64,000 nt of DNA from Candidatus Omnitrophota bacterium (GTDB lineage Bacteria; Omnitrophota; Omnitrophia; Omnitrophales; Aquincolibacteriaceae), in assembly GCA_030698625.1 (NCBI GenBank), contig JAUYMS010000048.1:154404-218403 (forward strand), given 5' to 3'. The notes beneath the pieces were generated by a model, which saw only the letters and a program-made list of their open reading frames with translations, did not search any database and was not told the origin of the DNA. Of the stretch, positions 8,547-57,174 are shown one piece after another. The position numbers and the translations under genes were made by a program. Numbering within the stretch: the stretch's first letter is position 1; every line of letters starts with the position of its first letter.

Positions 8547-8596
8547 GGCCGTATAGTACGTGGGCGCCCCCCCTTCTGTCAACCGCTCACCTCCGC

Positions 8597-8625: not shown

Positions 8626-8678
8626 AAATCGTTTTTTTCGCTTAAGTTCTTATCGAGTGTGGAGTTAGGTGAAATTTT

Positions 8679-9974: not shown

Positions 9975-9976
9975 CG

Positions 9977-22865: not shown

Positions 22866-22914
22866 AAACCTTGTCTTAGTAGACAGTTACGACAATCGTA
22901 TTGCAGTTTGAAAT

Positions 22915-22962
22915 CACCCCCGCGAGTTGGACATCGGGGGTGTTTGTCACTTTGTGTCTTCA
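22915..22962 (+). terminator. Terminator-like element within the 5' leader: 8-bp GC stem (CACCCCCG / CGGGGGTG, 12-nt loop) followed by a T-rich tract, about 50 nt downstream of the predicted TSS (attenuator or small-RNA terminator candidate)
   Basis: Read from the sequence. The tail is TTTGTCACTTTGTGTCTTC. It sits between a strong promoter and the first gene of a long biosynthetic operon. Confidence 0.45.
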
Positions 22963-22996
22963 CTGGCCATTCCACTTAAGGAGAAAATCACAGACT

Positions 22997-35509: not shown

Positions 35510-35588
35510 GGCTCCCTTAATATGCGAATTAAGGCGAAAAATGACTTGAGATAGCGACTTATCACGCCGATTTTGGAACTAGGTGGTT

Positions 35589-38981: not shown

Positions 38982-40337
38982 ATGACCTTTCTATACAACA
39001 TAGCTTATGCGGTGTTCGGTATTCTGTATCTGCCGGTCTTTGTCTCAAAATGCTTGCAGGCAGACAGTCCCCGTCGTCTGCTCATGGAAAGATTTGGTGT
39101 GCTTGGACGTTCGCTCAGAGTACGTCTCTTGGGTCAGAAAGTGATCTGGCTGCATGCCGTTAGTGTCGGGGAAGTTATGGCTGTCAAGAACTTCACGGAG
39201 ATGTTGCTCGACAGATATGCCGGGCACCACCTTGTCCTTACAACGGTGACGGCTACGGGCCAAAAGATTGCCAAAGAGCTGGAATCCGACAAAATCACCG
39301 TATGCTATTTCCCGTTCGATCTGACGCGACCGGTTCGCAGTTTCTTTGAAGCACTGCAACCCGTATGCGTATTGTTGGCCGAGACAGAGATCTGGCCAAA
39401 TCTGTTAACCGAAGCTCGGAGAGCTCGTGTTCCTGTTGGAATTATCAATGCGCGAATGTCGGCAAGGTCGGCTCGGCGCTATATGCGGTTCGGGCGCGTG
39501 TTCCGCCCCTTGATGAGTAAATTGGATTTTGTCCTTGCTCAGAGCGAGTCAGATGCCGCTAAGTTTATCGCCTTGGGAGTTGATTCCGACCGCGTTCAAG
39601 TGCTCGGTAACATGAAATACGACAACTCAGCGGCGAAGGATTCTTTTTCCCCTGACCGCCGACGATGTGTGAAGAAGGCGGATTGGGGTTTCCCCGAAAA
39701 TGCGCTGGTTCTCATGGGGGGGAGCACGCATCCTGGGGAGGAGGAGTTGATGTGCAAGGTTTTCAAGGGCTGCAAGGAGTCCCACCCGAATCTCCGGATG
39801 ATTCTTGCGCCGCGGCACATTGAACGCTCCAAAGTCATTGCTCGCAAGTGCGAAAAGAGATTGGGGCAGAAAGTAGTTTTGGCGACGCAAACGGATGGCT
39901 CGGCGATGGCTGAGATTCTGGTTCTCGATCGATTAGGAATATTAAAAGACCTTTATGCAATTGCTGACGTGGTGTTTGTCGGCGGAAGTTTGGTGCGCCA
40001 CGGCGGGCAGAATCCGATCGAGCCTGCCGACCAGCGCCGTGCGATTGTTCACGGCCCGCACGTTTTTAATTTTGAACACATCTACCAGAAGTTGGATACC
40101 GAAGGCGGAGCCGTTCTTGTGCGGGACGGCGACGAACTGGCCTTTGCTGTTGAACGGTTGTTAGCAAGGCCCGGAGAATGCAAGACGATGGGCGAACACG
40201 CTTATGAACAAGTTTGTCGCTACCGGGGGGCGACGACGAGGCATGTCGAATGGCTCGTGCCGTTCCTCGAATCCCATGATCAATTGCCCTATGACTTTAA
40301 AATAAGTGAGGTGAAAGATGCGCGGATCCATTCGTAA
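38982..40337 (+). CDS. waaA: 3-deoxy-D-manno-octulosonic acid (Kdo) transferase
   Basis: 451 aa with an N-terminal TM anchor and GT30 motifs (IWLHAVSVGE, LAETEIWPN). It sits next to lpxK. Confidence 0.88.
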   Translation: MTFLYNIAYAVFGILYLPVFVSKCLQADSPRRLLMERFGVLGRSLRVRLLGQKVIWLHAVSVGEVMAVKNFTEMLLDRYAGHHLVLTTVTATGQKIAKELESDKITVCYFPFDLTRPVRSFFEALQPVCVLLAETEIWPNLLTEARRARVPVGIINARMSARSARRYMRFGRVFRPLMSKLDFVLAQSESDAAKFIALGVDSDRVQVLGNMKYDNSAAKDSFSPDRRRCVKKADWGFPENALVLMGGSTHPGEEELMCKVFKGCKESHPNLRMILAPRHIERSKVIARKCEKRLGQKVVLATQTDGSAMAEILVLDRLGILKDLYAIADVVFVGGSLVRHGGQNPIEPADQRRAIVHGPHVFNFEHIYQKLDTEGGAVLVRDGDELAFAVERLLARPGECKTMGEHAYEQVCRYRGATTRHVEWLVPFLESHDQLPYDFKISEVKDARIHS

Positions 40338-41367
40338 TTATTTTCGTCTGTTAGCGGAAGACCGTGAGAGAGGTTTCGCAGCTCGGCTCCTTGGCCCCCT
40401 TCTGAGTGGCATTGCCTGGGTATACGGAGTTGGGGTCGGCACCTTGAGGCTCCTGCATGAGAAAAAGATTTTAAAGCGCAAGAGGCTGCCGTATCCCGTT
40501 GTGAGCGTGGGTAACCTGACATGGGGAGGGAGCGGGAAGACGCCGCTTGTCGAATACCTTGCACACCGTATCAGCGAGCGGAGGCGAACTCCTTTGGTCT
40601 TGACTCGCGGCTACAGTCAGGATGAAATTGAGCAATTACGACATCATCTTCCCCGCGTAATTATCGGAGTGGGCAAGGACCGCTTGAAAGTCGGCAGAAA
40701 CATCGGACAAAGAAATAGAATTGACATAGCCGTTCTTGACGACGGATTGCAGCATTGGCCGGTAGAGAGGGACATTGAAATTGTAGCGGTTAACTGCTTG
40801 AACCCATTTGGCAACGGGCATCTTCTGCCGCGCGGGATTCTTCGTGAACCGCTTTCGGTTTTAAAGAATGCTGCGATTATTGTCCTCTCACATGTAAATC
40901 TCGTCAAAATCGAAGACCTTAAGAAGCTTAAGGAGCAGATTCAGCGGATAGCGCCTAATTCCTTTATCGTGGAATCTTATCTCGAGCCGCTGTTTTTCTA
41001 CCGCGCACGCCAGCGCTCACGCGTGTCCCTGGATCGCTTGCACAATCATCGTGTGACCACATTCTCGGGGGTTGCGAGCCCCCGATCCTTTCAATTAACA
41101 CTGTCAAATTTTCAGATTAAACCCATCCGTAATTTTGAGTTTACCGACCATCACCCTTTTTCGGTGCAGGAGCTGGAAGAAATTAAGCGCGTTAGCGATT
41201 CTGCCTTCGCGGCAGAAATCATTACGACCGAAAAAGATTTTTACCGCTCGCCAAAAGCCATATCAGAGATACTGAACCCCTTGATTCTGGCGACTCGGCT
41301 GCGGATTCTATCCGGAGAGGATGTCCTCACAGACCGCCTTTTCAGGCTGGTGGGACTGGTTAAATAA
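40318..41367 (+). CDS. lpxK: Tetraacyldisaccharide 4'-kinase
   Basis: VVSVGNLTWGGSGKTP is the P-loop motif. 349 aa. Confidence 0.88.
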   Translation: MRGSIRNYFRLLAEDRERGFAARLLGPLLSGIAWVYGVGVGTLRLLHEKKILKRKRLPYPVVSVGNLTWGGSGKTPLVEYLAHRISERRRTPLVLTRGYSQDEIEQLRHHLPRVIIGVGKDRLKVGRNIGQRNRIDIAVLDDGLQHWPVERDIEIVAVNCLNPFGNGHLLPRGILREPLSVLKNAAIIVLSHVNLVKIEDLKKLKEQIQRIAPNSFIVESYLEPLFFYRARQRSRVSLDRLHNHRVTTFSGVASPRSFQLTLSNFQIKPIRNFEFTDHHPFSVQELEEIKRVSDSAFAAEIITTEKDFYRSPKAISEILNPLILATRLRILSGEDVLTDRLFRLVGLVK

Positions 41368-41379: not shown

Positions 41380-43335
41380 ATGACGAAATCTCCTCGACTC
41401 GAATGGTTAAGTCTTTTTGCAGTGCGCGGTTTCTCACTGGTGGTTACGCGTTTGCCCGAGAGCAGTGCGCTCGTCCTGGGCCGCTTTTGCGGGCGAGTGG
41501 CCTTTATTTTTTCAAACCGCAGACGGGTTGCCTATGCAGACCTGAAAGCAGCCTTCGGGAATCGCTATAGCCCCTCTGCGCGGTGGCAGATCATCAGGCA
41601 GCATTACGGCCATATGGGCCAATCCGCTGTTGAGATGATCCGTTTTCCGCAGCTCGACGCTGGATTTGTTGAAGATAAAGTGCGCATTCATCACTTCGAG
41701 AGGTTTAAATCGCTTACTGATCAAGGTCATGGCGCAATCCTGCTGACGGCGCATATCGGAAACTGGGAATTGATTCAGATCATCTCGGGACTACTTAACA
41801 AGCCGATTCACGTGTTGGGTCGAGACCAACGGTCCGCGGGCATGACGAAATTACTTGCGAAATACAGGCAAGCCCACGGCTCCGTGGCCGTCAGCCGCGG
41901 TATCAATCTGAGAGATTTTGTCCGGGCCATTCGCAGGGGAGAGATGGTGGGATTGCTCGGAGATCAGTCTGCCGGAAAGCACCAAGGCTTGATATTGCCG
42001 TTCATGGGAAGAAAAACCACAGTGCCGACAGGCGCATTTGAATTGGCAAAACGTACCGGGGTTCCGATTCTGCCTTGTTTTATCGTCCGTGACGGAAAGG
42101 GCGGCCACGAGATTTTTATCGAGGAGCCGATTCTCCCGATAAGGTCCGAAGCTTCGGATGAGGATCTTGCTAAAGCTGTGAAGGGTTACGTGCATCTGCT
42201 CGAGAGTATGATTTCTCGTTACCCGTATCAGTGGCTATGGGGGAAGAAGAGATGGAAATACGCTTGGACGAAACGTCTCCTTGTCCTCTCTGATGGCAAG
42301 GCCGGGCATGTGAAGCAGGTGGAAGCAGTTGTGCGGAATTTTAAAGAAATCCAGACTCAATATGATCGTCCGGGGATGGAATATCCGACGCAGGTCCTCG
42401 ACGTTCATTTCAAGTCAGACCAACACCGCAAATGGTTTGCGTGGATATGTCCGTTCTTCTTGCCGTGGGCACAGGGGCGAATAGGCAAGCTCCGGGCGTT
42501 CTTCACAAAGGAAACCCAGGATCAACTCGAGGAAGCGAGTGCCGACTTCATTATCTCTGCGGGCTCTAGTCTGACACCCTTAAATCTGTTTCTTGCTAAA
42601 GAGTGCCGTGCAAAAAGCGTGGTTCTGATGAAGCCGAGCTTTCCGTACAACTTGTTTCGTATTGACCTGGCCATCGTGCCGCTTCACGATCGGGGGCAGA
42701 TGCCGCGCGAAGCTATCCGTACCCTGCTGACGCCTAGTTGGTGGGAGCCCGATGAGGTCGAAGAGGCCAGCGAACGGCTAGCTCGCGAACTTCCGGCAAG
42801 AGATCGTGTTAAAGTGGGTGTCTTTCTCGGGGGAACGACGCGCCGGTATCGCATGGAAACGGGAAAAGTAAGACAGCTTTTAGATTCCCTCGAGCGACTC
42901 GAGTCTGCGGAGGGTGACTACATTATGACCACTTCGCGGCGCACGCCCGATGCGGTGACAGATTACTTGAAGGCAAACCGGGGCCAGTATCGGCGATGCC
43001 AGCAGTTGATTATCGCCGCCGAAGACAAGATGCCGGGGCGTATTGAGGGGATGATGGGGCTTGCCGAGGTCCTTGTGGTAACTGAGGACAGTATTTCGAT
43101 GATTTCAGAGGCCGTTAGCACGGATAAGCCCGTCGTAGTCCTTAACCTGGATTCGGAAAATCTACCGAATAAGCATCGTCGTTTTCAGGAACTTTTGGCG
43201 CAGAACGCCGCCGTCGTTTTTGCGGATCCTGAGAATATTGTGGAGAAGATCAGGAACGCAAGGGCGCAGTTGCGCGGCGGATGGTATACCAGGGACCAAG
43301 CCATACTGCGGGGAAGGCTTCAGGAAATACTATGA
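41380..43335 (+). CDS. lpxL: Fusion protein: N-terminal LpxL/HtrB-type lipid A late acyltransferase (LPLAT, ~300 aa) + C-terminal ELM1/DUF1022-family (PF06258, putative GT-B glycosyltransferase-like) domain
   Basis: The N-terminal half carries the HIGNWE (HX4E) catalytic motif and ends in PYQWLWGKKRWK, a typical LpxL C-terminus. The C-terminal half starts at LLVLSDGKAGHVKQ and contains TTSRRTP, the signature motifs of bacterial ELM1-family proteins. Confidence 0.7.
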   Translation: MTKSPRLEWLSLFAVRGFSLVVTRLPESSALVLGRFCGRVAFIFSNRRRVAYADLKAAFGNRYSPSARWQIIRQHYGHMGQSAVEMIRFPQLDAGFVEDKVRIHHFERFKSLTDQGHGAILLTAHIGNWELIQIISGLLNKPIHVLGRDQRSAGMTKLLAKYRQAHGSVAVSRGINLRDFVRAIRRGEMVGLLGDQSAGKHQGLILPFMGRKTTVPTGAFELAKRTGVPILPCFIVRDGKGGHEIFIEEPILPIRSEASDEDLAKAVKGYVHLLESMISRYPYQWLWGKKRWKYAWTKRLLVLSDGKAGHVKQVEAVVRNFKEIQTQYDRPGMEYPTQVLDVHFKSDQHRKWFAWICPFFLPWAQGRIGKLRAFFTKETQDQLEEASADFIISAGSSLTPLNLFLAKECRAKSVVLMKPSFPYNLFRIDLAIVPLHDRGQMPREAIRTLLTPSWWEPDEVEEASERLARELPARDRVKVGVFLGGTTRRYRMETGKVRQLLDSLERLESAEGDYIMTTSRRTPDAVTDYLKANRGQYRRCQQLIIAAEDKMPGRIEGMMGLAEVLVVTEDSISMISEAVSTDKPVVVLNLDSENLPNKHRRFQELLAQNAAVVFADPENIVEKIRNARAQLRGGWYTRDQAILRGRLQEIL

Positions 43336-45449
43336 AGGTACTCCAAGTATTACCCTCTCTGGATGTCGGAGGCGTAGAGCGCGGCGTTATTGATTTGGCG
43401 CGCGCCATGAGAAAAAGGGGCGAGGAGATTGTGGTGATCTCCTCCGGCGGAGCACTCGTTGCGCAGCTTCACAAGATGGGTGTGACCCACTACGCGCTTC
43501 CGGTACACAGGAAGTCTCTGTTTTCTTTGGCATTGGTTCCGCGGATCGCACGGATTATTCAGCGAGAACATGTCGATGTGGTGCATGCTCGCAGTCGTGT
43601 GCCCGCGTGGTTGGCTTGGCTTGCGGCACGCCAGACGCAGACGCCGTTTGTCACGACATGCCATGGCTATTATTCAAATCATCTTTTGAGTCGCGTGATG
43701 GGGTGGGGTAAGCGAGTCATCGTGATCTCTCGAATCATCGGCCGCCATATGATAGACGACTTCGGTGTAAGCCCCGAGCGCATTCGCCTGATTCACAGAG
43801 GGCTGGACTTACAGCACTTCACTCATCGGCCTATCGTGAAGCGTACTCCCCGTATTTTTCGTATTCTGAATATCGGCCGTTTGTCCCCCATCAAGGGACA
43901 GTTGGAGTTTCTCCGCGCTGTTCATTTGCTGCGGCGTGATTTGCAGCAGATAGAGGTGTGTCTTGTAGGGTCAGAAGGGAAGGGGAAACATAAATATACG
44001 GAACTCCTCAAGCAAACAGTCCGGCAATTGGGTTTGGAGGCTTGCGTGAAATTTCTCGGGACGCGTCGTGATATTCCCGAACTATTGAGGGGCGCGGACC
44101 TGCTTGTCCTTTCGACCTTGGTTCCGGAAGCCTTCGGGCGCGTCGTCATCGAGGCCGGTGCCGTCGGGTGCCCTGTCGTTTCAACCCGAGTCGGCGGTGT
44201 TCTCGACATTATCGACGAAGGCGAGAACGGTCGCTTGGTTCCTCCGGGGGATCCCGAAGCCATGGCGGCGGCAATGTTTGATAGCTTAACCAGTGTCGAG
44301 CAGTCAACCAGGCTTGCGGAAAATCTGCGCAAGAAGGTTGAAAATAATTTCACGCTGGACCAACTTGTTGATAAGACGATTGCTGTCTACGATGAAGTGA
44401 AAAAGGAGAAAAAGATTCTGGTTATCAAGCTTGGTGCGATGGGTGATGTGATTCTCGCGGTGCCCAGTCTTCGCATGCTCCGAGAACGCTTTCCGGACGC
44501 CTCAATCTCGGTTTTGGTCGATAAAAAGTTTGCTCCTCTTTTGAAGGGGTGTCCTTATATTCAGGAAGTGATTCCGGTGGAGCGGCGCAGATTTCCGCGG
44601 CTTCTTTATCTGCTGCGATTGGCCAAGTCTTTGAGGCGTGAAGGCTATGATGCTTCGGTGGATCTGCAGAATTCAAAATGGACTCATTTGCTAGCTTTTC
44701 TCGCAGCGATCCCAGAGCGTTTCGGGTTTCGTCGCGGCCATTTCGGTTTTCTCCTGAACCGGCCGGACCGTTTCTTCCGGGTGGCAGAGCCGCCGGTTAA
44801 AAATCAGTACCGCATACTCTCAAAAGTAGGTGTCCAGAAATGGGACGATCGTCTAGAGCTTTGGCCGGACGCGAAGTCAGAGAAAAAAGTCGATGAGGTG
44901 CTTGAGGAGTTTCTTAAAGATAGCAATTCATCGCGCCTGGTGGGATTTGTCCTCGGATCCAGTCCGAAGTGGCTGACAAAGAGATGGCCTCTTGAGAATT
45001 TTAAGGCCTTGGCGAGGCGGTTGCAGGAGTCAGAAAATACCCGCGTTGTTCTGATTGGCTCCGCGGAGGATGGGGAAATTGCCGACCAATTTTTGGCCGG
45101 TGAAACAGCACACGTTCTTAACATGGTGGGCAAGACATCGTCGCGTGAGCTCATACCTCTTGTGAAGCGGCTCGATGTCCTTGTGACGGGCGATACGGCG
45201 CCGCTGCATGTGGCGAGCGCCGTCGGCACGGATATCGTCGCGCTTTTTGGACCCACGGACCCGAAGCGCCATATGCCTCCGGGCAACAACCATGTCGTGA
45301 TTAATCGAAGGTTGGCCTGCCAGCCTTGTTATCGGGGGACCTGTTCGAATGAGGAGGACCTCGCTTGTCTAAGACAGATTTCGATCGAAGAGGTTTTTAA
45401 CGCAGTGCGCAAGAAACTGAATTCTCTGGTCGTGGAAGCAAGGGCGTAA
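43332..45449 (+). CDS. Two-domain glycosyltransferase: N-terminal GT4 (group 1, WaaG-like) + C-terminal GT9 (heptosyltransferase, RfaF/WaaC-like)
   Basis: The N-terminus has MKVLQVLPSLDVGGVERGV and EAFGRVVIEAGAVGCPVVSTRVGG, a GT4 E-x7-E region. The C-terminus has ILVIKLGAMGDVILAVPSLRML...VTGDTAPLHVASAVGTDIVALFGPTDP, which are GT9 hallmarks. ATGA overlap with the upstream gene. Confidence 0.78.
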   Translation: MKVLQVLPSLDVGGVERGVIDLARAMRKRGEEIVVISSGGALVAQLHKMGVTHYALPVHRKSLFSLALVPRIARIIQREHVDVVHARSRVPAWLAWLAARQTQTPFVTTCHGYYSNHLLSRVMGWGKRVIVISRIIGRHMIDDFGVSPERIRLIHRGLDLQHFTHRPIVKRTPRIFRILNIGRLSPIKGQLEFLRAVHLLRRDLQQIEVCLVGSEGKGKHKYTELLKQTVRQLGLEACVKFLGTRRDIPELLRGADLLVLSTLVPEAFGRVVIEAGAVGCPVVSTRVGGVLDIIDEGENGRLVPPGDPEAMAAAMFDSLTSVEQSTRLAENLRKKVENNFTLDQLVDKTIAVYDEVKKEKKILVIKLGAMGDVILAVPSLRMLRERFPDASISVLVDKKFAPLLKGCPYIQEVIPVERRRFPRLLYLLRLAKSLRREGYDASVDLQNSKWTHLLAFLAAIPERFGFRRGHFGFLLNRPDRFFRVAEPPVKNQYRILSKVGVQKWDDRLELWPDAKSEKKVDEVLEEFLKDSNSSRLVGFVLGSSPKWLTKRWPLENFKALARRLQESENTRVVLIGSAEDGEIADQFLAGETAHVLNMVGKTSSRELIPLVKRLDVLVTGDTAPLHVASAVGTDIVALFGPTDPKRHMPPGNNHVVINRRLACQPCYRGTCSNEEDLACLRQISIEEVFNAVRKKLNSLVVEARA

Positions 45450-45451
45450 GC

Positions 45452-46501
45452 ATGAAGATATTAATTATTACCAAGAATTGGTTGGGGGATATCCTTTTTC
45501 AACTGCCGGCGATTGAGGCCATTAAGAGGTTTTCTCCGACAGCGGAGATCGTTTGTATGGCTCCGGAACGTTGCCGAGAGATTCTTGAAGCGCATCCGGC
45601 GGTCAGCCGTGTCATTGCTTTTGATGAGAAGGGAGAGCACCGCTCTCTATGGGCGAAAATCGGTCTGATTGGCCAACTGCGCAGGGAAAAATGGGACCGC
45701 GCTTATCTGTTCCATCGCTCCCGCACACGCGCAGCTCTAATGTGGCTGGCTGGCGTAAGGGAACGCATCGGTTATGCGCACGGGAGGCGTCTGTTTCTCA
45801 CTACGGCCATCGAAGAACCGCAACAGAGGATGCATCATGTTGATTATGCGCTAGCCTTTGTAAAACAGGCCGGTATTTCAACGGTACAATCGTCCAGGTA
45901 TCGGTTTTATTTTTCAGCCTTGTGTCGGCAGCAAGCCGCGGTACTCCTGCAAGAATACGAAGTACGACCGCGGAATTTTATGTGTTTTCATATTGGCGCA
46001 AACTGGGAGCCCAAGCGATGGCCTGCGAGCCACTTTGCAGAGCTGGCGGATCTTATTGGGACGCAGTGGAACATCCCCATTCTGGTGACCGGCGCGGGGC
46101 GTGATAAAGAGCTGGCCGGCGAAGTCACTCAACGAGTGAAGCAGGCACGTGTCCTTTCTTTAGTCGGAAAGACTAGTTTGGGTACGCTCGGGGCTCTCTA
46201 TGAGCAAGCCCTTCTCCTGGTTTCCGGAGATTCGGGGCCCATGCACATCGCTTCGGGGGTCGGAACACCTGTCTTGGCCCTTTTTGGCCCGACTGATCCT
46301 GCGCTCACCGGCCCTCGCGGGGTCGGCCAGACAGCGGTCCTTCAGTATATCCCGGAAGGCTATCATACCCCGTGGCTTGGCAAGAACCTGCCTGAAGGCG
46401 GGTGGGTTTCTCATATTACACCGCAGCAGGTGATTGCGGCGATCAAAGAAAAAGGATGGATGGAGAGCGGATGGAAGCTACAAAACGAATCCTTATCGTA
46501 A
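45452..46501 (+). CDS. GT9 LPS heptosyltransferase paralog
   Basis: Has MKILIITKNWLGDILFQLPAI and the ...VSGDSGPMHIASGVGTPVLALFGPTDP GT9 motifs. Confidence 0.8.
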   Translation: MKILIITKNWLGDILFQLPAIEAIKRFSPTAEIVCMAPERCREILEAHPAVSRVIAFDEKGEHRSLWAKIGLIGQLRREKWDRAYLFHRSRTRAALMWLAGVRERIGYAHGRRLFLTTAIEEPQQRMHHVDYALAFVKQAGISTVQSSRYRFYFSALCRQQAAVLLQEYEVRPRNFMCFHIGANWEPKRWPASHFAELADLIGTQWNIPILVTGAGRDKELAGEVTQRVKQARVLSLVGKTSLGTLGALYEQALLLVSGDSGPMHIASGVGTPVLALFGPTDPALTGPRGVGQTAVLQYIPEGYHTPWLGKNLPEGGWVSHITPQQVIAAIKEKGWMESGWKLQNESLS

Positions 46502-47445
46502 CTCTTTCGAATATTGGGGACGTAATTCTCACGACGCCGGTGATTACGTCGCTGGCGGCTCGCTATCCGGAAGCAAAGATCACGGTTGTGACGAGCCTCC
46601 GCGCAGAGGGTGTGCTCGAGGGTAGCCGCTTCATACATGATATCGTCATCTATAATAAGAAAAGCGGATTATCGGGGCAGTTACGATTCCTGAACCAGTT
46701 GCGCCGGCACCGGTATGATCTCGTCGTAGATTTGCGCCGTACCGCTATTGCTTACCTGGTCCGGGCTAAAAGGCGAAGTCCGTTGTTTAGGCATTACCGC
46801 CAAATGTCCATGCGGAACCGCCACTTGGAAGTTCTCGGAATGATGAAATTGGAATGCCCTGAGGCGCCTCAGTTCGATTTTTTTAGCAAGGTGGACGACA
46901 ATAATGCGCTCGAGAAAGTCCATGCGGAGGGGCTTTCTACGGCGCGCGATTGGATTCTGGTAGCCCCCGTCGCGGCCAGTGAACTCAAGACATGGCGGCT
47001 TGACGGTTTTCGAGATCTCTTGCGAGGACTTCTGCGTGAGCGGAGCGAGGACATTTTGTTGGTGGGCGACATGCGCGAACGCGAATTGGCTGCGCCGCTG
47101 GTGGACCTCAACCCGAAGCGAATTCGAAATTTAGCCGGCCGCACAACGCTTCCCGAGCTGGCGGCCTTAATAGCGAGGGCATCCTTACTCATTGCCAATG
47201 ACAGTGCCGCCATGCACCTGGGTTATGAATTGAATCGACCCGTAGTCGCATTATTCGGCCCGACGCATTATAAAAAATCCGGATACACGGGGGAGAAGTT
47301 TCGCATCGTGCGCGAACCCGTCGAATGTTCGCCATGTGAACGCCCGAGGTGCCGCTTTGCCCGCCAGGCCTGTTTTGAAGACTTAAAAGCCGATAAGGTA
47401 ATGAAGGCTTGTGAGGAGTTGCTGCGTGTTCATACCTCTTCCTAA
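46471..47445 (+). CDS. GT9 LPS heptosyltransferase paralog (start uncertain: 46456 or 46471)
   Basis: Has ILIVTLSNIGDVILTTPVI and ...IANDSAAMHLGYELNRPVVALFGPTH. Confidence 0.75.
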   Translation: MEATKRILIVTLSNIGDVILTTPVITSLAARYPEAKITVVTSLRAEGVLEGSRFIHDIVIYNKKSGLSGQLRFLNQLRRHRYDLVVDLRRTAIAYLVRAKRRSPLFRHYRQMSMRNRHLEVLGMMKLECPEAPQFDFFSKVDDNNALEKVHAEGLSTARDWILVAPVAASELKTWRLDGFRDLLRGLLRERSEDILLVGDMRERELAAPLVDLNPKRIRNLAGRTTLPELAALIARASLLIANDSAAMHLGYELNRPVVALFGPTHYKKSGYTGEKFRIVREPVECSPCERPRCRFARQACFEDLKADKVMKACEELLRVHTSS

Positions 47446-48505
47446 ATCACGGCCCCCGAGGATTCTCGTGACGCGCGCTGATCGGATCGGAGACTTTGTC
47501 TTGTCTACGCCTGTCTTCGAGGCGCTGCGCGGGCATTTTCCGAAGGCGTGGATTGCCGGTCTGACCTCCATTGAGAACGGAGAACTGGCGATAGGGAATC
47601 CGTTTCTCGATGAGACTCTCCTTTATGATAAAAAAGGGCGGGAAGCCGGATTTTGGGGAAATCTACGCTTCGCCCGTAAGCTTGCAAAGAAGAATTTTGA
47701 TATCGTTATTCATTTGCATGCAACCAACCGCATGCATTGGGTCAGTTGGTTGGCAAAGATTCCGGTGCGTATAGGTTGGACCCGTCGTGCCGGGTGGGCG
47801 CTTACCCATCCATATGCGGATGTAAAGGTGGAAGGCGCAAAGCACGAAGCGGAGTATAACTTTGACTTGCTTAAAGAACTTCAGATTGTCGCGCCTGAAA
47901 GATTGAGGCCCGTCCTTACGACTCAAGTGAAATCGCGTGCGTCGCTTGATGAACTGGTTGCACGCTTAGGAATAACGACGACGAAGCCGTGGGTTGCTCT
48001 CAGCCCTGGGGCGAGTTGTCCGTCCAAAAGATGGCCGCCTGAGAGATTCGGTGCACTGGCAGACGAATTGGCGGAACGTCATGATATTGAACTTATTCTA
48101 GTCGGGAGCGCGGTGGACCGTCATTTGGCCGAAAAGGTGCAGGGTGCAGCGAGGACGTCCCTATTTGATCTCACGGGACGATTGTCGCTCGGTATGCTCG
48201 CCGCACTTTTTGAGCGCACCCGGCTCTTAATTTCGAATGACTCGGGCCCCGTCCATATTGCGGACGCAGTTGGAACATGCGTCATTTCGATTTTTGGCCG
48301 GAAGCAGCCGGGATTGTCACCCACACGTTGGCGGCCGCTTAATCCGCGTTCTACTTTTGTCTGGAAAGACGTGGGCTGTGTAGAGTGTCTGGCGCACCGG
48401 TGTGAAATAGGTTTTCTTTGTTTGGATGCGATCGCGGTTCATCATGTCATGGATCAAGTGGCGCGTTATCGGCACCTGCTGGAACCCGCCGAGGTGGCGT
48501 CGTGA
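47411..48505 (+). CDS. GT9 LPS heptosyltransferase paralog
   Basis: Has ILVTRADRIGDFVLSTPVF and ...ISNDSGPVHIADAVGTCVISIFG. Confidence 0.75.
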   Translation: MRSCCVFIPLPKSRPPRILVTRADRIGDFVLSTPVFEALRGHFPKAWIAGLTSIENGELAIGNPFLDETLLYDKKGREAGFWGNLRFARKLAKKNFDIVIHLHATNRMHWVSWLAKIPVRIGWTRRAGWALTHPYADVKVEGAKHEAEYNFDLLKELQIVAPERLRPVLTTQVKSRASLDELVARLGITTTKPWVALSPGASCPSKRWPPERFGALADELAERHDIELILVGSAVDRHLAEKVQGAARTSLFDLTGRLSLGMLAALFERTRLLISNDSGPVHIADAVGTCVISIFGRKQPGLSPTRWRPLNPRSTFVWKDVGCVECLAHRCEIGFLCLDAIAVHHVMDQVARYRHLLEPAEVAS

Positions 48506-49606: not shown

Positions 49607-49954
49607 GTGAGCGTTGAAAGGCGTAAATTTAATCGTGTCCCCTTTGAAAAGCCCATTCGGGTAAAAGCGATTGGCGGTGCGCAGGGCTCACGATACGGTG
49701 ATGCTCTGGCCAGAGATATTTCCGAGGGCGGAATTCGCTTTTTCCATGATCATTTTATTGCGACAACCTCACGCGTGCTGCTTGAGATGACATTTCCGGA
49801 GGCTGACAAACCCGTGGTGGCTGTAGCTAAACCCGTTTGGGTTCGGGAGTTGTCAAATAGAAGCCAATTTGAAGTCGGTAATGCTTTTCTTGAGATTGCC
49901 GATGAAGATAAACAGGTCATTCGCAGCTTCGTGCAAAGAAAACGGATTCCGTGA
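49607..49954 (+). CDS. PilZ-domain (c-di-GMP-binding) protein
   Basis: The RRKFNR (RxxxR) and DISEGG (D-x-S-x-GG) motifs are in PilZ order. About 115 aa. Start is a GTG at 49607 or a TTG at 49592. Confidence 0.7.
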   Translation: MSVERRKFNRVPFEKPIRVKAIGGAQGSRYGDALARDISEGGIRFFHDHFIATTSRVLLEMTFPEADKPVVAVAKPVWVRELSNRSQFEVGNAFLEIADEDKQVIRSFVQRKRIP

Positions 49955-50958: not shown

Positions 50959-52004
50959 TTGAAAGCCTTGCAAGGCAGGCAACTTAAAGAACTTATCGAT
51001 CTTTTCCGTGATGCTCGAGTTCTGGTTATCGGAGATTTTATCCTGGATCAGTTCGTATGGGGAAGCGTACGCAGGATATCGCCCGAGGCACCGGTGCCGG
51101 TCGTTAAGGTTGAAAGAGATTCTTTTATGCCGGGAGGCAGTCTCAACGTCGCTAATAATATTCGCACTCTCGGAGGAACCGTCTATCCCTGTGGTGTTGT
51201 GGGGCGTGATCTGGAAGGGAGAATGCTGGTTAAGGCCATGCGCCGCGAAGGCATTGAAACTGGCGGGGTGATCTACGATTCTGACCGTCGCACTTCTCTG
51301 AAGACGCGTATTATTGCTCACTCACAGCAGGTTGTTCGGTACGATCGCGAGAACACCGATGACATCTCCAAGCAGGCTTGCCGTGAAATTCTTGAGTTCG
51401 TCAAAAGAAAAATCGACGTCGTGGATGTCATTGTCATAGAAGATTACGGAAAGGGGGTTGTGCAGCCCCTGCTTTTAAAGGAAGTCACTGCACTGGCGAA
51501 GCGGTTTTGCAAGCCGGTGCTTGTCGACCCTAAAGAAAAGCATTTTTCTTATTACACGGGAGTGACGGCGATTACACCGAACCGGCTTGAGGCATACGGC
51601 GTGTTTGAAAACGGAAACGCAAAAAGGCGTGAGAGCAGTATTGAGCAGGTTGGGCGCAGTTTGGTGCGGAAGCTCAAATGCCAGGCCCTTCTGATTACAC
51701 TGGGAGAAGACGGCATGGCCCTTTTTGAGAAAAATGGACAGATTACGAAAATTCCGACGGCTGCACGCGAAATTTTCGACGTGTCAGGAGCCGGTGATAC
51801 AGTGATGGCGGCCTTCAGCCTTTGTCTGGCGGCGGGCGCCAGTATGCAGGAAGCTGCGCGCGTTGCCAATGTTGCAGCAGGCATCGTTGTGGGCAAATTG
51901 GGGACGGCGACCGTGTCGCCCTCCGAGCTCAGAGCCGCACTGAAGAACGAGAGCGGAACGAGTTCGAGCTCGCGCAAAAAAATTCGCAAGATACCGGTGG
52001 TGGC

Positions 52005-52008
<4 letters not shown>
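50959..52008 (+). CDS. hldA: D-glycero-beta-D-manno-heptose-7-phosphate kinase (HldE kinase domain / HldA, PfkB family); TTG start
   Basis: VLVIGDFILDQFVWGSVRRISPEAPVPVV is diagnostic for RfaE domain I. DVSGAGDTV is the PfkB anion-hole motif. No adenylyltransferase domain is attached. Confidence 0.8.
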
Positions 52009-54417
<2,409 letters not shown>

Positions 54418-54424
54418 GCTGATT

Positions 54425-55267
54425 ATGTCATTTCAGGCTGTTAATGTGGATTCCGTTGTTTTCGGGGATCCTAAGTCTTTTGTCTTAATCGCGGGGCCTT
54501 GTGTTATAGAAAGCGAAGAAAATGCAGTTCGCCACGCCGAAAAGATTTCGGAGATTGCGCGCGAACTCAAAGTGCCTTATGTTTTTAAAGCCAGCTACGA
54601 TAAGGCAAACCGGACCTCAGCGAAGTCATTTCGCGGCGTCGGTATGGACAAAGGGCTGAAGATCCTGACGCGCATCAAGAAGGAGTTTAAGCTCCCGATT
54701 CTCAGCGATGTTCACTGCCGTGAACAGATAGGCCCTGCCAGCGAAGTTCTCGACATCATACAGATTCCCGCGTTTCTCTGCCGCCAGACAGATATGCTCC
54801 TGGAAGCCGGCCGCAGCGGTTGTGCGGTCAGCGTCAAGAAAGGACAATTCCTTTCTCCTTGGGATGCCAAAAACATTATTGAGAAACTGGAATCATCGGG
54901 ATGTAAGAAAATTATGCTGGCAGAGCGCGGCGTGAGTTTTGGCTATCAAAACTTGGTGAACGATTTCCGTGCGATTCCGATAATGCGCAGTTTCGGGTAT
55001 CCGGTTATCTACGATGCGACGCATTCGGTACAGCTTCCTGGCGGACAGGGGACCGCCTCAGGCGGTACAGCGGAATTTATTCCTACTTTGGCGCGCTGCG
55101 GAATTGTCGCAGGTGCCGATGCCATTTTTATGGAAGTTCACGAAAATCCGTCTGAAGCCCTTTCGGACGGGCCGAATAATCTCGCTTTGTCAAAGTTGAA
55201 GGGACTTCTGGAGTCACTAGTCCGTTTGAAGAACGCCATGGCGGTTACCGAGGAGGCTCTGGTATGA
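54425..55267 (+). CDS. kdsA: 3-deoxy-8-phosphooctulonate (Kdo-8-P) synthase
   Basis: 280 aa DAHP-synthase-like TIM barrel with LIAGPCVIES and YKASYDKANRTS. Confidence 0.92.
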   Translation: MSFQAVNVDSVVFGDPKSFVLIAGPCVIESEENAVRHAEKISEIARELKVPYVFKASYDKANRTSAKSFRGVGMDKGLKILTRIKKEFKLPILSDVHCREQIGPASEVLDIIQIPAFLCRQTDMLLEAGRSGCAVSVKKGQFLSPWDAKNIIEKLESSGCKKIMLAERGVSFGYQNLVNDFRAIPIMRSFGYPVIYDATHSVQLPGGQGTASGGTAEFIPTLARCGIVAGADAIFMEVHENPSEALSDGPNNLALSKLKGLLESLVRLKNAMAVTEEALV

Positions 55268-56232
55268 CGAGTTCTGTCATCCGGACGGCACGCCGTATCC
55301 TTATGATTGAGGCGCAGGCTATTCAAAGGCTGCAGCGTCGTATCGGTAAATCGTTTTTGGAGGCGGTTGATCTCATGGCTTCTTGTGAGGGGCGGGTAAT
55401 TCTCACCGGAATGGGGAAGCCGGGTTTTATCGCGCGAAAAATCGCCGCGACTTTAGCATCCACCGGAACGCCCAGTCTCTTTTTGCATCCGGCCGAAGCA
55501 ATTCACGGCGATGTCGGCATGGTGAAGGCACAGGACGTGCTGATTGCAATTTCAAACAGCGGTCAAACTGAAGAGATCGTCAAATTGTTGTCACCGATTA
55601 AAAAGCTTGGTGTGCCGCTCATTGCGCTGACGAGTAACCGTAAGTCGCCGCTGGCATGCAATGCCGATGTGGTGCTGGACTTAGGCGTTGATCGCGAAGC
55701 TTGTCCTCTCAACCTCGCGCCGTCAGCTTCAACGACTGCAGCCTTGGCGATGGGGGATGCGCTGGCTTTGTCTTTGTTGCGCAAGAGGGGTTTTCGGACT
55801 GAAGATTTCGCAGAGCTGCACCCGGGCGGCAGTTTAGGGCGTCAGCTTCTCAAGGTTAGGGATGTTATGCGGCGGGGTAAAGCCAACCCGAAGGTCGATA
55901 ATACGACTTCGGTGCGCCGGGCGCTGTTCGCGATTACAAGGGCGCGCGCCGGAAGCTGTAGTGTGGTCGATAAGCGCGGCAAACTAATAGGGATTTTTAC
56001 CGACGGAGATTTACGCCGCCATTTACGTAGGGATGGCATTGATATCCTGAAGAAACCGGTCTGGGACGTCGCGACTAGAAAGCCGCTGAGGATCGGTGAA
56101 GATAAGCTTGCTGCCGAGGCCCTTCATATGTTGAAGACCAAGAAGGTTGACGAATTGCCTGTTGTCGACGCCAAGGGGCGTGCGGTAGGTCTTCTCGATG
56201 TTCAAGATTTATTAAAGGCAGGCTTTGTTTGA
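55264..56232 (+). CDS. kdsD: D-arabinose-5-phosphate isomerase (KpsF/GutQ family; SIS + tandem CBS domains)
   Basis: SIS domain (VILTGMGKPGFIARKIAATLASTGTPS), with two C-terminal CBS domains. Confidence 0.9.
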   Translation: MTSSVIRTARRILMIEAQAIQRLQRRIGKSFLEAVDLMASCEGRVILTGMGKPGFIARKIAATLASTGTPSLFLHPAEAIHGDVGMVKAQDVLIAISNSGQTEEIVKLLSPIKKLGVPLIALTSNRKSPLACNADVVLDLGVDREACPLNLAPSASTTAALAMGDALALSLLRKRGFRTEDFAELHPGGSLGRQLLKVRDVMRRGKANPKVDNTTSVRRALFAITRARAGSCSVVDKRGKLIGIFTDGDLRRHLRRDGIDILKKPVWDVATRKPLRIGEDKLAAEALHMLKTKKVDELPVVDAKGRAVGLLDVQDLLKAGFV

Positions 56233-56235: not shown

Positions 56236-57174
56236 ATGGCTAAGAAAAAGCCATACCGATTTGTTTTGTATGCCCTTGTCCGTGCAGTTGCGGCGGTTAT
56301 CGGGCGGTTACCGCGGCGGTTTCTGCTGGCGCTTGCGGGGACTCTTGGGCAGTGGGGTTACTGGGGCATTAGCCGTCAAAGGGAGAGAACACTCCAGAAT
56401 CTGAGGCGAGCTTTTGGTGCGGAAAAGAGCGAAGCGGAGATTCGAACCCTTGCGAAGGGTGTCTTTGAAAATTTGGCGTTAACTATCGCGGAGATCATCC
56501 GGATTGGACGGCTTGATCCGCGGGAGTTGAAAGACTTTGTCGATGTGGGCGACGCCGAATCGGTTTACCGATCGGTTTTGAGCGAGGGGAAAGGACTTAT
56601 ATCCGTCACCGCACATATCGGCAATTGGGAGCTTTTGGCAGCGACATTTGGTTCGATGGGATTTCGCGGTGGTGTTCTTGCCCGCCGGATATATTACGAA
56701 CCCTACAACCGATGGATCGTGGGATTGCGGGCTCGCTTGGGTGTGCCGACGATTTACCGTGACCATGCTTCCAAGGAGATTCTTAGACGTCTTGGAAGCG
56801 GTGAGATTATCGGAATGTTGCCGGATCAAGACATTGCAAGTTTGAAGGGTGTCTTCGTGGATTTCTTTGGTATCCCGGCGTATACGCCGACTTCTCCGGT
56901 GAAATTGGCCCTGGCGAGCGGCGCCCCGATATTGACGAGCTTTTTAATCCGGGAGCCGGGCAACCGTTACCGGGTAATTGTCGGCGACATCATACGGCCT
57001 GACATTACGACGACACGCGAAGAAGCTGTCGCGCGTTTTACCGGGTATTGGATGGAAAGTTGCGAACGGATTATTCGCAGGTATCCCGAACAGTGGGCCT
57101 GGATGCATAACCGCTGGAAGACAAGGCCGCGTCGGTCGCGGACACGGGATTTTATTATGCAGGGCGCTTCTTAA
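56236..57174 (+). CDS. Lipid A biosynthesis late (lauroyl/myristoyl) acyltransferase, second LpxL/LpxM paralog
   Basis: The HIGNWE catalytic motif and the RYPEQWAWMHNRWK C-terminus match the LPLAT LpxL family. Confidence 0.8.
   Translation: MAKKKPYRFVLYALVRAVAAVIGRLPRRFLLALAGTLGQWGYWGISRQRERTLQNLRRAFGAEKSEAEIRTLAKGVFENLALTIAEIIRIGRLDPRELKDFVDVGDAESVYRSVLSEGKGLISVTAHIGNWELLAATFGSMGFRGGVLARRIYYEPYNRWIVGLRARLGVPTIYRDHASKEILRRLGSGEIIGMLPDQDIASLKGVFVDFFGIPAYTPTSPVKLALASGAPILTSFLIREPGNRYRVIVGDIIRPDITTTREEAVARFTGYWMESCERIIRRYPEQWAWMHNRWKTRPRRSRTRDFIMQGAS

What the first reader, a model, noticed from the sequence alone, without database searches (positions are those of the whole stretch)
41380..43335. 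Lipid A late acyltransferase (LpxL) fused to an ELM1/DUF1022-family domain
A single 651-aa ORF joins two regions. The first is a complete LpxL/HtrB acyltransferase (HIGNWE catalytic dyad, characteristic PYQWLWGKKRWK end). The second is a ~350-aa domain with the bacterial ELM1 (PF06258) signatures (LLVLSDGKAGHVKQ..., TTSRRTP). ELM1-like proteins are uncharacterised putative GT-B-fold enzymes that often sit in LPS loci. A covalent fusion with LpxL suggests the ELM1 domain acts on Kdo2-lipid A directly, as a modifying transferase coupled to secondary acylation. That would give a functional handle on an orphan family.
Basis: partly seen in the sequence, partly recalled or inferred. Interest (0 to 1): 0.6.

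Follow-up and report, generated by a model that had tools for sequence, protein, structure and literature searches.

The report
Lipid A acyltransferase fused to Kdo-transferase-like domain
This is a real, phylum-wide fusion in Candidatus Omnitrophota of a late lipid A acyltransferase with a glycosyltransferase whose Acinetobacter relative (KdoT) was recently shown to add the third Kdo sugar to Kdo2-lipid IVA, so it is an unreported fused form of known enzymes rather than a clue to an orphan family.

Summary
The 651-aa ORF (41380-43335, +) is real. It carries PF03279 (aa 9-293) and PF06258 (aa 308-614), and the catalytic H125-x4-E130 and S519-R-R-T522 motifs are invariant in the family. It is not a frameshift: 82 of 83 related loci, almost all Ca. 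Omnitrophota at 30-56% identity, have one stop-free ORF spanning both domains.

The ELM1 family is no longer orphan. A. baumannii GtrOC1/KdoT was shown in vitro (JBC 2025) to be a CMP-Kdo:Kdo2-lipid IVA KdoIII transferase. I retrieved KdoT. The window's domain is 29% identical to it (E 6e-20), and every published key residue aligns to an invariant residue.

The next gene overlaps the fusion's stop codon (ATGA). Its GT4 half belongs to the subfamily of LpsB/GnaT, KdoT's partner enzyme (32% identity, E 5e-62).

The same lpxL-kdoT-gnaT linkage recurs in other lineages. In A. baumannii, lpxL and gnaT are adjacent. A cultured Methylophaga carries a probably independent LpxL::ELM1 fusion followed by a gnaT orthologue.

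The best reading is a bifunctional enzyme that couples secondary acylation with inner-core Kdo extension. The donor sugar is inferred, not shown. I class it as a new variant of a known kind, of moderate interest.

The parts
41380..43335 (+). The fused gene: 651-aa late lipid A acyltransferase (PF03279) plus ELM1/GtrOC1/KdoT-like glycosyltransferase (PF06258)
   Evidence: ORF. Pfam domains. The 100% identical database entry P0001 comes from a 346,779-bp Ca. Omnitrophota contig. AF2 model has pLDDT 91 and pTM 0.87.
41404..42258 (+). LpxL/LpxM-family acyltransferase domain (aa 9-293)
   Evidence: PF03279 E 6.5e-46. Profile against PDB sequences: A. baumannii LpxM 5kn7 at E 4.7e-23. Foldseek best matches are 5knk/5kn7 and PatA. 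No NCBIfam equivalog cut-off is reached.
41752..41769 (+). Catalytic H125-x4-E130 dyad (HIGNWE)
   Evidence: H125, G127, N128, W129 and E130 are invariant in 57 fusions. H and E are each kept in 89 of the 150 distant representatives; most of the rest have a gap at that column.
42238..42276 (+). Domain junction (W287..R299): LpxL C-terminal W/K/R-rich motif and a linker of about 6 residues
   Evidence: W287, K290, R291, W292, K293 and W296 are invariant. DNA was read directly and has no stop or frame change.
42301..43221 (+). ELM1/GtrOC1 (KdoT-like) GT-B glycosyltransferase domain (aa 308-614)
   Evidence: PF06258 E 2.7e-48. 29% identity to A. baumannii KdoT, E 6e-20. Domain model has pLDDT 93, and its nearest solved folds are MurG, MGD1 and other GT-B enzymes.
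42292..42309 (+). D305..H310 (SDGKAGH), aligned with KdoT D8..H13
   Evidence: Invariant in 57 fusions. D is kept in 136 and H in 135 of 150 representatives. Alignment to KdoT.
42685..42690 (+). H436-D437, aligned with KdoT H109-D110
   Evidence: Invariant. Kept in 147 of 150 representatives. Alignment to KdoT.
42934..42945 (+). S519-R520-R521-T522 = the SRRT motif of KdoT (S178-T181; R180 is needed for activity in A. baumannii)
   Evidence: T517 to R521 are invariant. Each of the four residues is kept in 144-147 of 150 representatives. Alignment to KdoT. Mutagenesis is reported in PMC12856342.
43332..45449 (+). Downstream gene with a start/stop overlap (ATGA): LpsB/GnaT-subfamily GT4 domain fused to a GT9 heptosyltransferase domain
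   Evidence: Pfam and NCBIfam; the GT9 half passes the TIGR02195 cut-off. ATG 43332-43334 overlaps TGA 43333-43335. The GT4 half is 32% identical to A. baumannii LpsB/GnaT, E 5e-62, with EX7E conserved. LpsB-group hits score 184-197 bits against 134 or less for other GT4 genes. An LpsB-like GT4 gene lies directly downstream in 76 of 79 loci that have room, and 64 of those 76 have an NTGA overlap.
40318..41367 (+). lpxK (tetraacyldisaccharide 4'-kinase), immediately upstream
   Evidence: PF02606 E 1.4e-62; TIGR00682 above its cut-off. Found upstream of the fusion in 79 of 83 loci.
38982..40337 (+). waaA (canonical GT30 Kdo transferase)
   Evidence: PF04413 E 4.2e-60. Conserved position in L001-L003 and L060.
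56236..57174 (+). Second, standalone late acyltransferase paralogue (312 aa) between kdsD and lptC
   Evidence: PF03279 E 1.9e-52. 28% identical to the fused domain and also carries HIGNWE.
51822..56232 (+). CMP-Kdo supply genes in the same cluster: kdsB, pyrG, kdsA, kdsD
   Evidence: PF02348, PF06418, PF00793 and SIS+CBS.

Best explanation
[quoted passage not shown] The N-terminal half is a secondary ('late') lipid A acyltransferase of the LpxL/LpxM family. The C-terminal half is an inverting GT-B glycosyltransferase of the ELM1/GtrOC1 family and is homologous to Acinetobacter KdoT. It most likely transfers a further Kdo (KdoIII) from CMP-Kdo onto Kdo2-lipid IVA/A. Published work shows that both enzyme types use the same intermediate made by WaaA. 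The fusion therefore ties acylation and inner-core extension to the same molecule before export. The product would then pass to the next gene's product, an LpsB/GnaT-like GT4 fused to a heptosyltransferase, whose start codon overlaps the fusion's stop codon. What is shown here: the domain identities, the intact motifs, homology to KdoT and to LpsB/GnaT, the conserved gene order, and probably independent recurrence of the fusion. What is inferred: the donor sugar, the acylation position, and any kinetic or physical coupling.
For: The domains and their motifs are conserved over 150 diverse representatives. The two halves co-vary (Pearson 0.74) and are about equally conserved, with mean identity 0.47 for the N half and 0.52 for the C half. 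KdoT was recovered from the A. baumannii OC locus, in the order ilvE-gtrOC1-gtrOC2-pda1, and its residues match the published numbering. The window's domain is 29% identical to it (E 6e-20). D8, H13, H109, D110 and SRRT align to D305, H310, H436, D437 and S519-T522, all invariant. KdoT is the best and only near-full-length hit in PLSDB, while alphaproteobacterial family members match only partially. KdoT's biochemistry, including its preference for Kdo2-lipid IVA, is in PMC12856342. The downstream GT4 half falls in the LpsB/GnaT subfamily. Its gene follows the fusion in 76 of 79 loci, mostly with a 4-nt start/stop overlap. Several fusions point the same way. The same ELM1 clade is also fused to LpxK and to GT9. 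A probably independent LpxL::ELM1 fusion, followed by a 46%-identical LpsB orthologue, occurs in cultured Methylophaga pinxianii. In A. baumannii, lpxL and lpsB are adjacent. Many gammaproteobacterial LpxL proteins are fused to WaaA, the other Kdo transferase. CMP-Kdo supply genes lie in the same cluster.
Against: No biochemistry exists for any Omnitrophota protein. At 29% identity, donor specificity cannot be transferred safely. A. baumannii alone has five PF06258 paralogues (GtrOC1, 14, 19a, 19b, 22; PMC10327509), and four of them sit in variable outer-core regions and probably use other sugars. The SRRT motif may be family-wide rather than specific to Kdo. I could not place the domain in a tree with those paralogues. 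The acyltransferase domain reaches no NCBIfam equivalog cut-off, and a second paralogue exists, so its position and order of action are unknown. L060 shows that the ELM1 module can exist without the LpxL domain, so the covalent link is not obligatory. The interdomain geometry could not be inspected; only pTM 0.87 is available.
Confidence: 0.6

Rival explanations
1. The C-terminal domain is a glycosyltransferase that acts on the Kdo-lipid A region but uses a donor other than CMP-Kdo, for example a hexose, uronic acid or heptose. Omnitrophota would then have a different inner core from Acinetobacter.
For: PF06258 has several paralogues in A. baumannii outer-core loci that presumably transfer other sugars. 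Identity to KdoT is only 29%. Compared with KdoT, the domain has an insertion of about 40 aa and a C-terminal extension of about 55 aa. The locus holds an unusual run of GT9 genes.
Against: Every residue tested or proposed in KdoT is conserved. The domain is partnered with an LpsB/GnaT-subfamily GT4, whose known acceptor is KdoIII. KdoT is the best hit among the proteobacterial family members available.
Confidence: 0.27
2. The N-terminal domain is not a lipid A secondary acyltransferase. It would instead be another LPLAT-family enzyme, for example one acylating a different glycolipid as PatA does, or an inactive membrane anchor for the glycosyltransferase.
For: It scores below every NCBIfam equivalog cut-off (141 bits against 248 for the best model). 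PatA structures match almost as well as LpxM. A second PF03279 paralogue in the window could supply LpxL activity. L060 lacks the domain.
Against: The HX4E dyad and many other residues are invariant over deep divergence. The profile hits LpxM much better than PatA (E 4.7e-23 against 1.2e-12). The gene sits between lpxK and core glycosyltransferases in 79 of 83 loci. The two halves are about equally conserved.
Confidence: 0.08
3. The ELM1 domain is non-catalytic and serves as a scaffold or regulator that recruits other core enzymes to LpxL.
For: In KdoT, no single catalytic base was found by mutagenesis. Plant ELM1 is described as an adaptor protein.
Against: KdoT is catalytically sufficient in vitro. 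SRRT, HD, D-x4-H and E577 are kept in about 135-147 of 150 representatives. The predicted fold is a complete GT-B.
Confidence: 0.04
4. The fusion is an assembly, binning or frameshift artefact that joins two adjacent genes.
For: One related locus (L060) has a standalone ELM1 gene.
Against: 82 of 83 loci from independent assemblies, including a single-cell genome and a closed replicon of a cultured Methylophaga, have a single ORF. The junction residues are invariant. In L060 the LpxL part is absent, not frame-shifted.
Confidence: 0.01

Closest known systems
Acinetobacter baumannii KdoT (A1S_2903, GtrOC1; PF06258), a CMP-Kdo:Kdo2-lipid IVA KdoIII transferase (PMC10936431, PMC12856342)
   Same: It is in the same Pfam family. 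It is 29% identical over about 300 columns (E 6e-20). D8, H13, H109, D110 and the S178-R179-R180-T181 motif all align to invariant residues of the fusion family. Both have a GT-B fold and both are partnered with an LpsB/GnaT GT4.
   Different: KdoT is a standalone 296-aa protein encoded in the outer-core locus, away from lpxL and gnaT. The window's domain is fused to an acyltransferase, has an insertion of about 40 aa that includes a hydrophobic helix (aa ~345-365), and has a C-terminal extension of about 55 aa. Its donor and acceptor are untested.
LpxL/LpxM late acyltransferases (PF03279; A. baumannii LpxM structure 5KN7/5KNK)
   Same: It has the same family, fold and HX4E dyad, and the characteristic C-terminal P-x-Q-W/Y-x-W-x-x-[KR]-[RW]-[FW]-K motif.
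   Different: It scores below all curated equivalog cut-offs and is 21% identical to A. baumannii LpxL. It carries a 350-aa glycosyltransferase at its C-terminus. A second standalone paralogue is encoded 13 kb downstream.
A. baumannii LpsB/GnaT (GT4, a UDP-GlcNAcA transferase acting on KdoIII), compared with the gene immediately downstream
   Same: It is 32% identical over its full length (E 5e-62). The EX7E motif aligns with E283/E291 of GnaT. It is clearly separated from generic GT4 genes. In A. baumannii, gnaT lies next to lpxL.
   Different: Here the GT4 is itself fused to a GT9 heptosyltransferase domain, and its start codon overlaps the stop codon of the LpxL-ELM1 gene. The donor sugar is unknown, and no UDP-GlcNAc 6-dehydrogenase was seen in the window.
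Methylophaga pinxianii WP_226069883.1 (674 aa) on replicon pWTT2411
   Same: It has the same PF03279+PF06258 architecture, is followed by an LpsB/GnaT orthologue and a GT9, and keeps all motifs.
   Different: Its linker is about 75 aa, against about 6 aa here. Each of its domains is closer to the unfused A. baumannii LpxL (34%, 182 bits) and KdoT (35%, 178 bits) than to the Omnitrophota fusion (58 bits for the ELM1 half). This suggests an independent fusion event. This form is rare, with only one 90% cluster.
LpxL-WaaA (PF03279+PF04413) fusions in uncultured Gammaproteobacteria, and WaaZ (GT73), the E. coli KdoIII transferase (WaaZ is cited from general knowledge)
   Same: LpxL-WaaA is also an N-terminal late acyltransferase fused to a Kdo transferase. 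WaaZ performs the analogous KdoIII addition.
   Different: WaaA (GT30) and WaaZ (GT73) belong to glycosyltransferase families other than ELM1/PF06258. I did not analyse WaaZ here.

Membership tests
PF03279 LpxL/LpxM late lipid A acyltransferases | Match to the family profile above the curated threshold | tested here: met
   157 bits against a cut-off of 22.3, covering 281 of 295 profile positions.
PF03279 LpxL/LpxM late lipid A acyltransferases | Catalytic HX4D/E dyad | tested here: met
   H125 and E130 are invariant in 57 fusions. H and E are each kept in 89 of the 150 representatives; most of the rest have a gap at that column.
PF03279 LpxL/LpxM late lipid A acyltransferases | Fold like the solved LpxM structure | tested here: met
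   Foldseek 5knk at E 1.5e-14. Profile against 5kn7 at E 4.7e-23.
Specific LpxL, LpxM or LpxP equivalog (position and acyl-chain specificity) | Score above an NCBIfam equivalog cut-off | tested here: not met
   The best model is NF006270 at 141 bits against a cut-off of 248, and all 17 models are below their cut-offs. 'LpxL' is therefore only a family-level label.
Specific LpxL, LpxM or LpxP equivalog (position and acyl-chain specificity) | Acyl-ACP-dependent, Kdo-dependent secondary acylation of lipid IVA | not testable with these tools
   This needs an enzyme assay or lipid A mass spectrometry.
PF06258 ELM1/GtrOC1 family | Match to the family profile above the curated threshold | tested here: met
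   165 bits against a cut-off of 27, covering profile positions 1-277 of 304. NCBI's name for the identical protein is 'ELM1/GtrOC1 family putative glycosyltransferase'.
KdoT-type enzymes (A. baumannii A1S_2903) | Invariant SRRT motif, with R180 needed for activity | tested here: met
   S519-R520-R521-T522 aligns with S178-T181 of KdoT. The motif is invariant in 57 fusions and each residue is kept in 144-147 of 150 representatives.
KdoT-type enzymes (A. baumannii A1S_2903) | Direct sequence homology to KdoT over the whole domain | tested here: met
   BLASTP gives 29% identity and 47% positives at E 6e-20. KdoT is the best hit in PLSDB, with 83% of the query covered.
KdoT-type enzymes (A. baumannii A1S_2903) | GT-B fold with two Rossmann-like halves | tested here: met
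   The domain model has pLDDT 93, and its top solved matches are MurG, MGD1, OtsA and GT1 enzymes.
KdoT-type enzymes (A. baumannii A1S_2903) | Orthology to GtrOC1 rather than to the paralogues GtrOC14, 19a, 19b or 22 | tested here: inconclusive
The only support is indirect, from the pairing with an LpsB/GnaT-subfamily GT4.
KdoT-type enzymes (A. baumannii A1S_2903) | [quoted passage not shown] | not testable with these tools
   This needs the in vitro assay of PMC12856342 or complementation of delta-kdoT.
LpsB/GnaT subfamily of GT4 (downstream gene, N-terminal half) | Closer to LpsB than to other GT4 enzymes, with a conserved EX7E motif | tested here: met
   32% identity at E 5e-62, and EAFGRVVIE aligns with E283..E291 of GnaT. 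LpsB-group hits score 184-197 bits against 134 or less for all other GT4 genes in PLSDB.

The most novel reading that the evidence does not exclude
LpxL, the KdoT-like transferase, the GnaT-like GT4 and a heptosyltransferase may work as one physical assembly line on Kdo2-lipid IVA at the inner membrane. On this reading, Omnitrophota have fixed that arrangement as two fusion proteins whose genes overlap start to stop. Proteobacteria would keep the same partnership non-covalently, as suggested by the adjacent lpxL and gnaT genes in A. baumannii. This could explain the unexplained finding that KdoT needs GnaT in vivo but not in vitro. It would also mean that the 'split Kdo pathway' is ancient and widespread rather than a peculiarity of Acinetobacter.
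Probability: 0.3. Interest if true: 0.6.

Novelty: new variant of a known kind. Interest (0 to 1): 0.42.

Why it matters
First, it extends the recently discovered KdoT/GnaT route of inner-core assembly from Acinetobacter and Rickettsia to a whole uncultured phylum, and to a cultured Methylophaga. Second, recurrent and probably independent fusions give comparative-genomic evidence that ELM1-type transferases act at the Kdo2-lipid IVA stage alongside secondary acylation. These fusions are LpxL::ELM1 (apparently twice), LpxK::ELM1, GT9::ELM1 and LpxL::WaaA. Third, it suggests a concrete hypothesis of physical or kinetic coupling among LpxL, KdoT and GnaT. This bears on an open puzzle in A. baumannii, where KdoT depends on GnaT in vivo but not in vitro. 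Fourth, the Methylophaga protein offers a way to test this in a cultured organism. Public databases name these proteins after only one of their two activities: NCBI uses the glycosyltransferase name and JGI the lauroyltransferase name.

Tried and rejected
- Frameshift or assembly artefact: rejected.
- ELM1 domain as a substitute for LpxB: rejected. A canonical LpxB (PF02684, E 2e-90) is in the window at 4056-5237 (-).
- Sequence search of the PDB with the ELM1 half, both as a single sequence and as a profile: no solved relative was found.
- Taking the KdoT sequence from the JBC supplement: the alignment there is an image. I recovered KdoT instead from A. baumannii chromosomal records held in PLSDB.
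- Window deacetylase (49951-50772) as an orthologue of A. baumannii Pda1: only family-level similarity (24% over 150 aa, E 5e-11), so I did not use it.
- Thalassospira LpsB-like GT4: it has no LPS context.
- Deciding which of the window's two PF03279 paralogues is 'the' LpxL by comparing each with A. baumannii LpxL: not discriminating (21% and 25%).
- Taxonomy from cluster-member names for the distant representatives: almost none carry a name.
- Literature searches for the fusion or for Omnitrophota LPS: nothing relevant was found.
- The NJ tree of ELM1 domains is rough (p-distances, some truncated sequences). I used it only to say that standalone and LpxK-fused forms are interspersed among the LpxL-fused ones.
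Full report
**Observation.** The window has a single 651-aa ORF at 41380..43335 on the + strand. Pfam places PF03279 (lipid A late acyltransferase) at aa 9-293 and PF06258 (Mito_fiss_Elm1) at aa 308-614. Both score far above their curated cut-offs. The DNA across the junction is continuous, and only about six residues separate the LpxL C-terminal KRWK from the first beta-strand of the second domain.

**The fusion is not an artefact.** A search of 5.8 billion proteins returned 269 relatives. The 120 best carry both Pfam domains, nearly all are about 650 aa, and they are 43-57% identical. Those that have names are almost all Candidatus Omnitrophota. An exhaustive HMMER search with the C-terminal half against 1.84 billion cluster representatives gave 2,488 family members at E<=1e-3. 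Of the 150 nearest, 109 also carry the acyltransferase domain, at identities down to 28%. A scan of GTDB species representatives found 321 matching stretches. The best 80 are nearly all Omnitrophota MAGs. They also include a single-cell genome of Ca. Omnitrophus fodinae and a few MAGs labelled Planctomycetales. In 82 of 83 fetched loci, one stop-free frame contains both domains. The exception, L060, has the same topA-xerC-waaA-lpxK context but a standalone 369-aa ELM1 gene. The LpxL part is absent there, not frame-shifted.

**Both halves look functional.** Across 57 full-length fusions, H125-x4-E130 (the acyltransferase dyad) is invariant. So are D305, H310, H436, D437, T517-T518-S519-R520-R521 and E577 in the second domain. 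The same positions hold in the 150 distant representatives. The two halves are about equally conserved, with mean pairwise identity 0.47 and 0.52. Their pairwise identities co-vary (Pearson 0.74), as expected if they are inherited as one unit. AlphaFold2 gives a confident model of the whole protein (pLDDT 91, pTM 0.87) and of the C-terminal domain alone (pLDDT 93). The N-terminal half matches A. baumannii LpxM and mycobacterial PatA. The C-terminal half has a GT-B fold nearest to MurG and MGD1, which glycosylate lipid acceptors. No structure of the ELM1 family has been solved.

**What the second domain is.** In A. baumannii, deleting the ELM1-like gene A1S_2903 (gtrOC1) truncates the core to Kdo2 (PMC10936431). 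In December 2025 the purified protein, renamed KdoT, was shown to transfer a third Kdo from CMP-Kdo to Kdo2-lipid IVA. It prefers the tetra-acylated substrate and depends on an invariant SRRT motif. The next sugar, GlcNAcA, is added by the GT4 enzyme GnaT (LpsB) (PMC12856342).

PLSDB happens to hold A. baumannii chromosomal records. This allowed me to retrieve the 296-aa gene next to ilvE in the OC locus. Its D8, H13, H109, D110 and S178-R179-R180-T181 match the published numbering exactly. The window's domain aligns to it at 29% identity (E 6e-20). Each of those residues falls on an invariant residue of the fusion family. Compared with KdoT, the window's domain has an insertion of about 40 aa and a C-terminal extension.

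One caveat applies. A. baumannii has five PF06258 paralogues, so family membership alone does not fix the donor sugar.

**Context.** The gene lies in a large LPS cluster. In order, it contains waaA, lpxK, the fusion, a GT4-GT9 fusion, four more GT9 genes, a polysaccharide deacetylase, a PfkB kinase, kdsB, pyrG, kdsA, kdsD, a second standalone PF03279 acyltransferase, lptC/lptA-like and lptB. LpxB and an MsbA-like exporter are also in the window, so the ELM1 domain is not replacing LpxB.

The stop codon of the fusion overlaps the start of the GT4-GT9 gene as ATGA. Across the related loci, lpxK precedes the fusion in 79 of 83. An LpsB-like GT4 gene follows it in 76 of the 79 loci with room downstream, and in 69 of those it is fused to GT9. 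In 64 of the 76 there is an NTGA start/stop overlap.

The GT4 half is 32% identical over its full length to A. baumannii LpsB/GnaT (E 5e-62), and the EX7E motif is aligned. In a tblastn search of 7.3 Gb of plasmid and chromid DNA, the LpsB group scores 184-197 bits. Every other GT4 gene scores 134 bits or less. So the partner of the KdoT-like domain is a GnaT-like enzyme, as in Acinetobacter.

**Recurrence elsewhere.** In A. baumannii, lpxL lies immediately upstream of lpsB/gnaT on the same strand.

In the cultured gammaproteobacterium Methylophaga pinxianii, a 674-aa protein combines PF03279 and PF06258 with a linker of about 75 aa. It is followed by a GT4 that is 46% identical to LpsB (E 1e-101), another GT4, a GT9 and an O-antigen ligase. 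Its two domains are much closer to the unfused A. baumannii LpxL (34%, 182 bits) and KdoT (35%, 178 bits) than to the Omnitrophota fusion (58 bits for the ELM1 half). The fusion therefore seems to have arisen independently.

Within the Omnitrophota-type clade, the ELM1 domain is also found fused to LpxK and to a GT9. These forms and the standalone forms are interspersed among the LpxL fusions in a rough tree. Many gammaproteobacterial LpxL proteins are fused at their C-terminus to WaaA, the canonical Kdo transferase. Others are fused to GT9, GT2, EptA/B or a second LpxL. An N-terminal LpxL joined to an enzyme of the Kdo region is therefore a recurring design.

[quoted passage not shown] One half adds a secondary acyl chain. 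The other half extends the Kdo region, most likely with a third Kdo from CMP-Kdo. Both would act on the Kdo2-lipid IVA made by WaaA. The product would pass to the GnaT-like/heptosyltransferase fusion encoded by the overlapping next gene.

KdoT prefers the under-acylated substrate. It is general knowledge, not tested here, that acylation favours export by MsbA. Tethering the two activities together would then stop acylation and export from outrunning core extension. That last step is my inference.

The domain identities, motifs, homologies, gene order and recurrence are shown. The donor sugar, the acylation position and the coupling itself are not. The main rival reading is the same architecture with a different donor sugar.

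**Comparison and novelty.** Both domains belong to known families, and one member of each has been characterised. The fusion itself is visible in public databases under single-function names. I found no paper that mentions it, or that discusses Omnitrophota LPS. It is best classed as a new variant of a known kind. Its value is corroborative and hypothesis-generating. It extends the KdoT/GnaT pathway to another phylum and links it physically to late acylation. It also points to a cultured organism in which this could be tested.

**Limits.** No enzyme data exist for these proteins. Orthology to KdoT, as opposed to its paralogues, rests on conserved residues and on the GnaT partnership, not on a resolved phylogeny. 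The model coordinates could not be inspected. Two fold libraries were unavailable.

Noticed in passing
window 35583-38048 (+): Topoisomerase I (TopA) carries an N-terminal ThiS/MoaD-like ubiquitin-fold domain of about 68 aa that ends in GGG, followed by a K/P/E-rich linker. The same ThiS-TopA fusion is in L002. In L003, ThiS is a separate 71-aa gene overlapping the topA start. In L001 it is absent.
   Followed up: partly
window 43332-45449 (+): The gene after the finding is itself a conserved fusion of an LpsB/GnaT-subfamily GT4 domain and a GT9 heptosyltransferase domain that passes the TIGR02195 (WaaF) cut-off. It was found fused in 69 of 79 related loci.
   Followed up: yes
window 44457-49605 (+): There is an unusual tandem run of five GT9 (heptosyltransferase-family) domains: the GT9 half of the fusion plus four further genes. 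The run is conserved in relatives, which have 3-4 standalone GT9 genes.
   Followed up: no
window 56236-57174 (+): A second, standalone late lipid A acyltransferase (PF03279, 312 aa, HIGNWE present) is 28% identical to the fused domain. It lies between kdsD and lptC.
   Followed up: partly
window 57195-58079 (+): A single 294-aa ORF combines an LptC domain (aa 20-178) with an LptA/LptD_N-like domain (aa 199-291). This may be an LptC-LptA fusion. lptB follows it directly.
   Followed up: no
window 4056-6182 (-) and 6328-8112 (+): lpxB is followed on the same strand by a Gfo/Idh/MocA-family oxidoreductase and faces a divergently transcribed MsbA-like ABC exporter. The oxidoreductase could be a GnnA-like enzyme for GlcN3N-type lipid A, but this comes from memory and was not tested.
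   Followed up: no
window 51822-55267 (+): CTP synthase (pyrG) sits between kdsB and kdsA, so CTP supply is placed next to CMP-Kdo synthesis.
   Followed up: no
proteins P0150, P0155, P0218, P0236, P0142 and P0175: The same ELM1 clade occurs as LpxK-ELM1 fusions (679-718 aa) and as one GT9-ELM1 fusion (736 aa).
   Followed up: partly
proteins P0278-P0389, e.g. P0291 and P0379: Dozens of clusters from uncultured Gammaproteobacteria encode proteins of about 730 aa with LpxL at the N-terminus and WaaA at the C-terminus. There are also LpxL-GT9, LpxL-EptA/B, LpxL-GT2 and tandem LpxL-LpxL proteins.
   Followed up: partly
L085 (Methylophaga pinxianii pWTT2411) 1-15219: A 221-kb replicon of a cultured Mariana Trench Methylophaga carries an LPS-remodelling island. 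It contains EptA, a two-component system, a PAP2 phosphatase, DgkA, an LTA-synthase-like gene, the LpxL-ELM1 fusion, an LpsB orthologue, a further GT4, a GT9 and an O-antigen ligase.
   Followed up: partly
L084 6998-7888 (A. baumannii CP040041.1): In this GenBank record, kdoT/gtrOC1 is annotated as 'nucleoside-diphosphate sugar epimerase'. Several A. baumannii 'plasmid' records in PLSDB (0.56-4.1 Mb) are really chromosomal sequence.
   Followed up: no
L015 and L070 (both from MAG nzgw333, JAHFHG01): One MAG has two separate contigs that each carry an LpxL-ELM1 fusion (50% and 45% identity to the query). This could be a paralogue pair or a mixed bin.
   Followed up: no
window 22901-23800 (+): A 299-aa ORF with a TTG start lies between eda and ilvB and has no Pfam match at E<=1e-5.
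   Followed up: no
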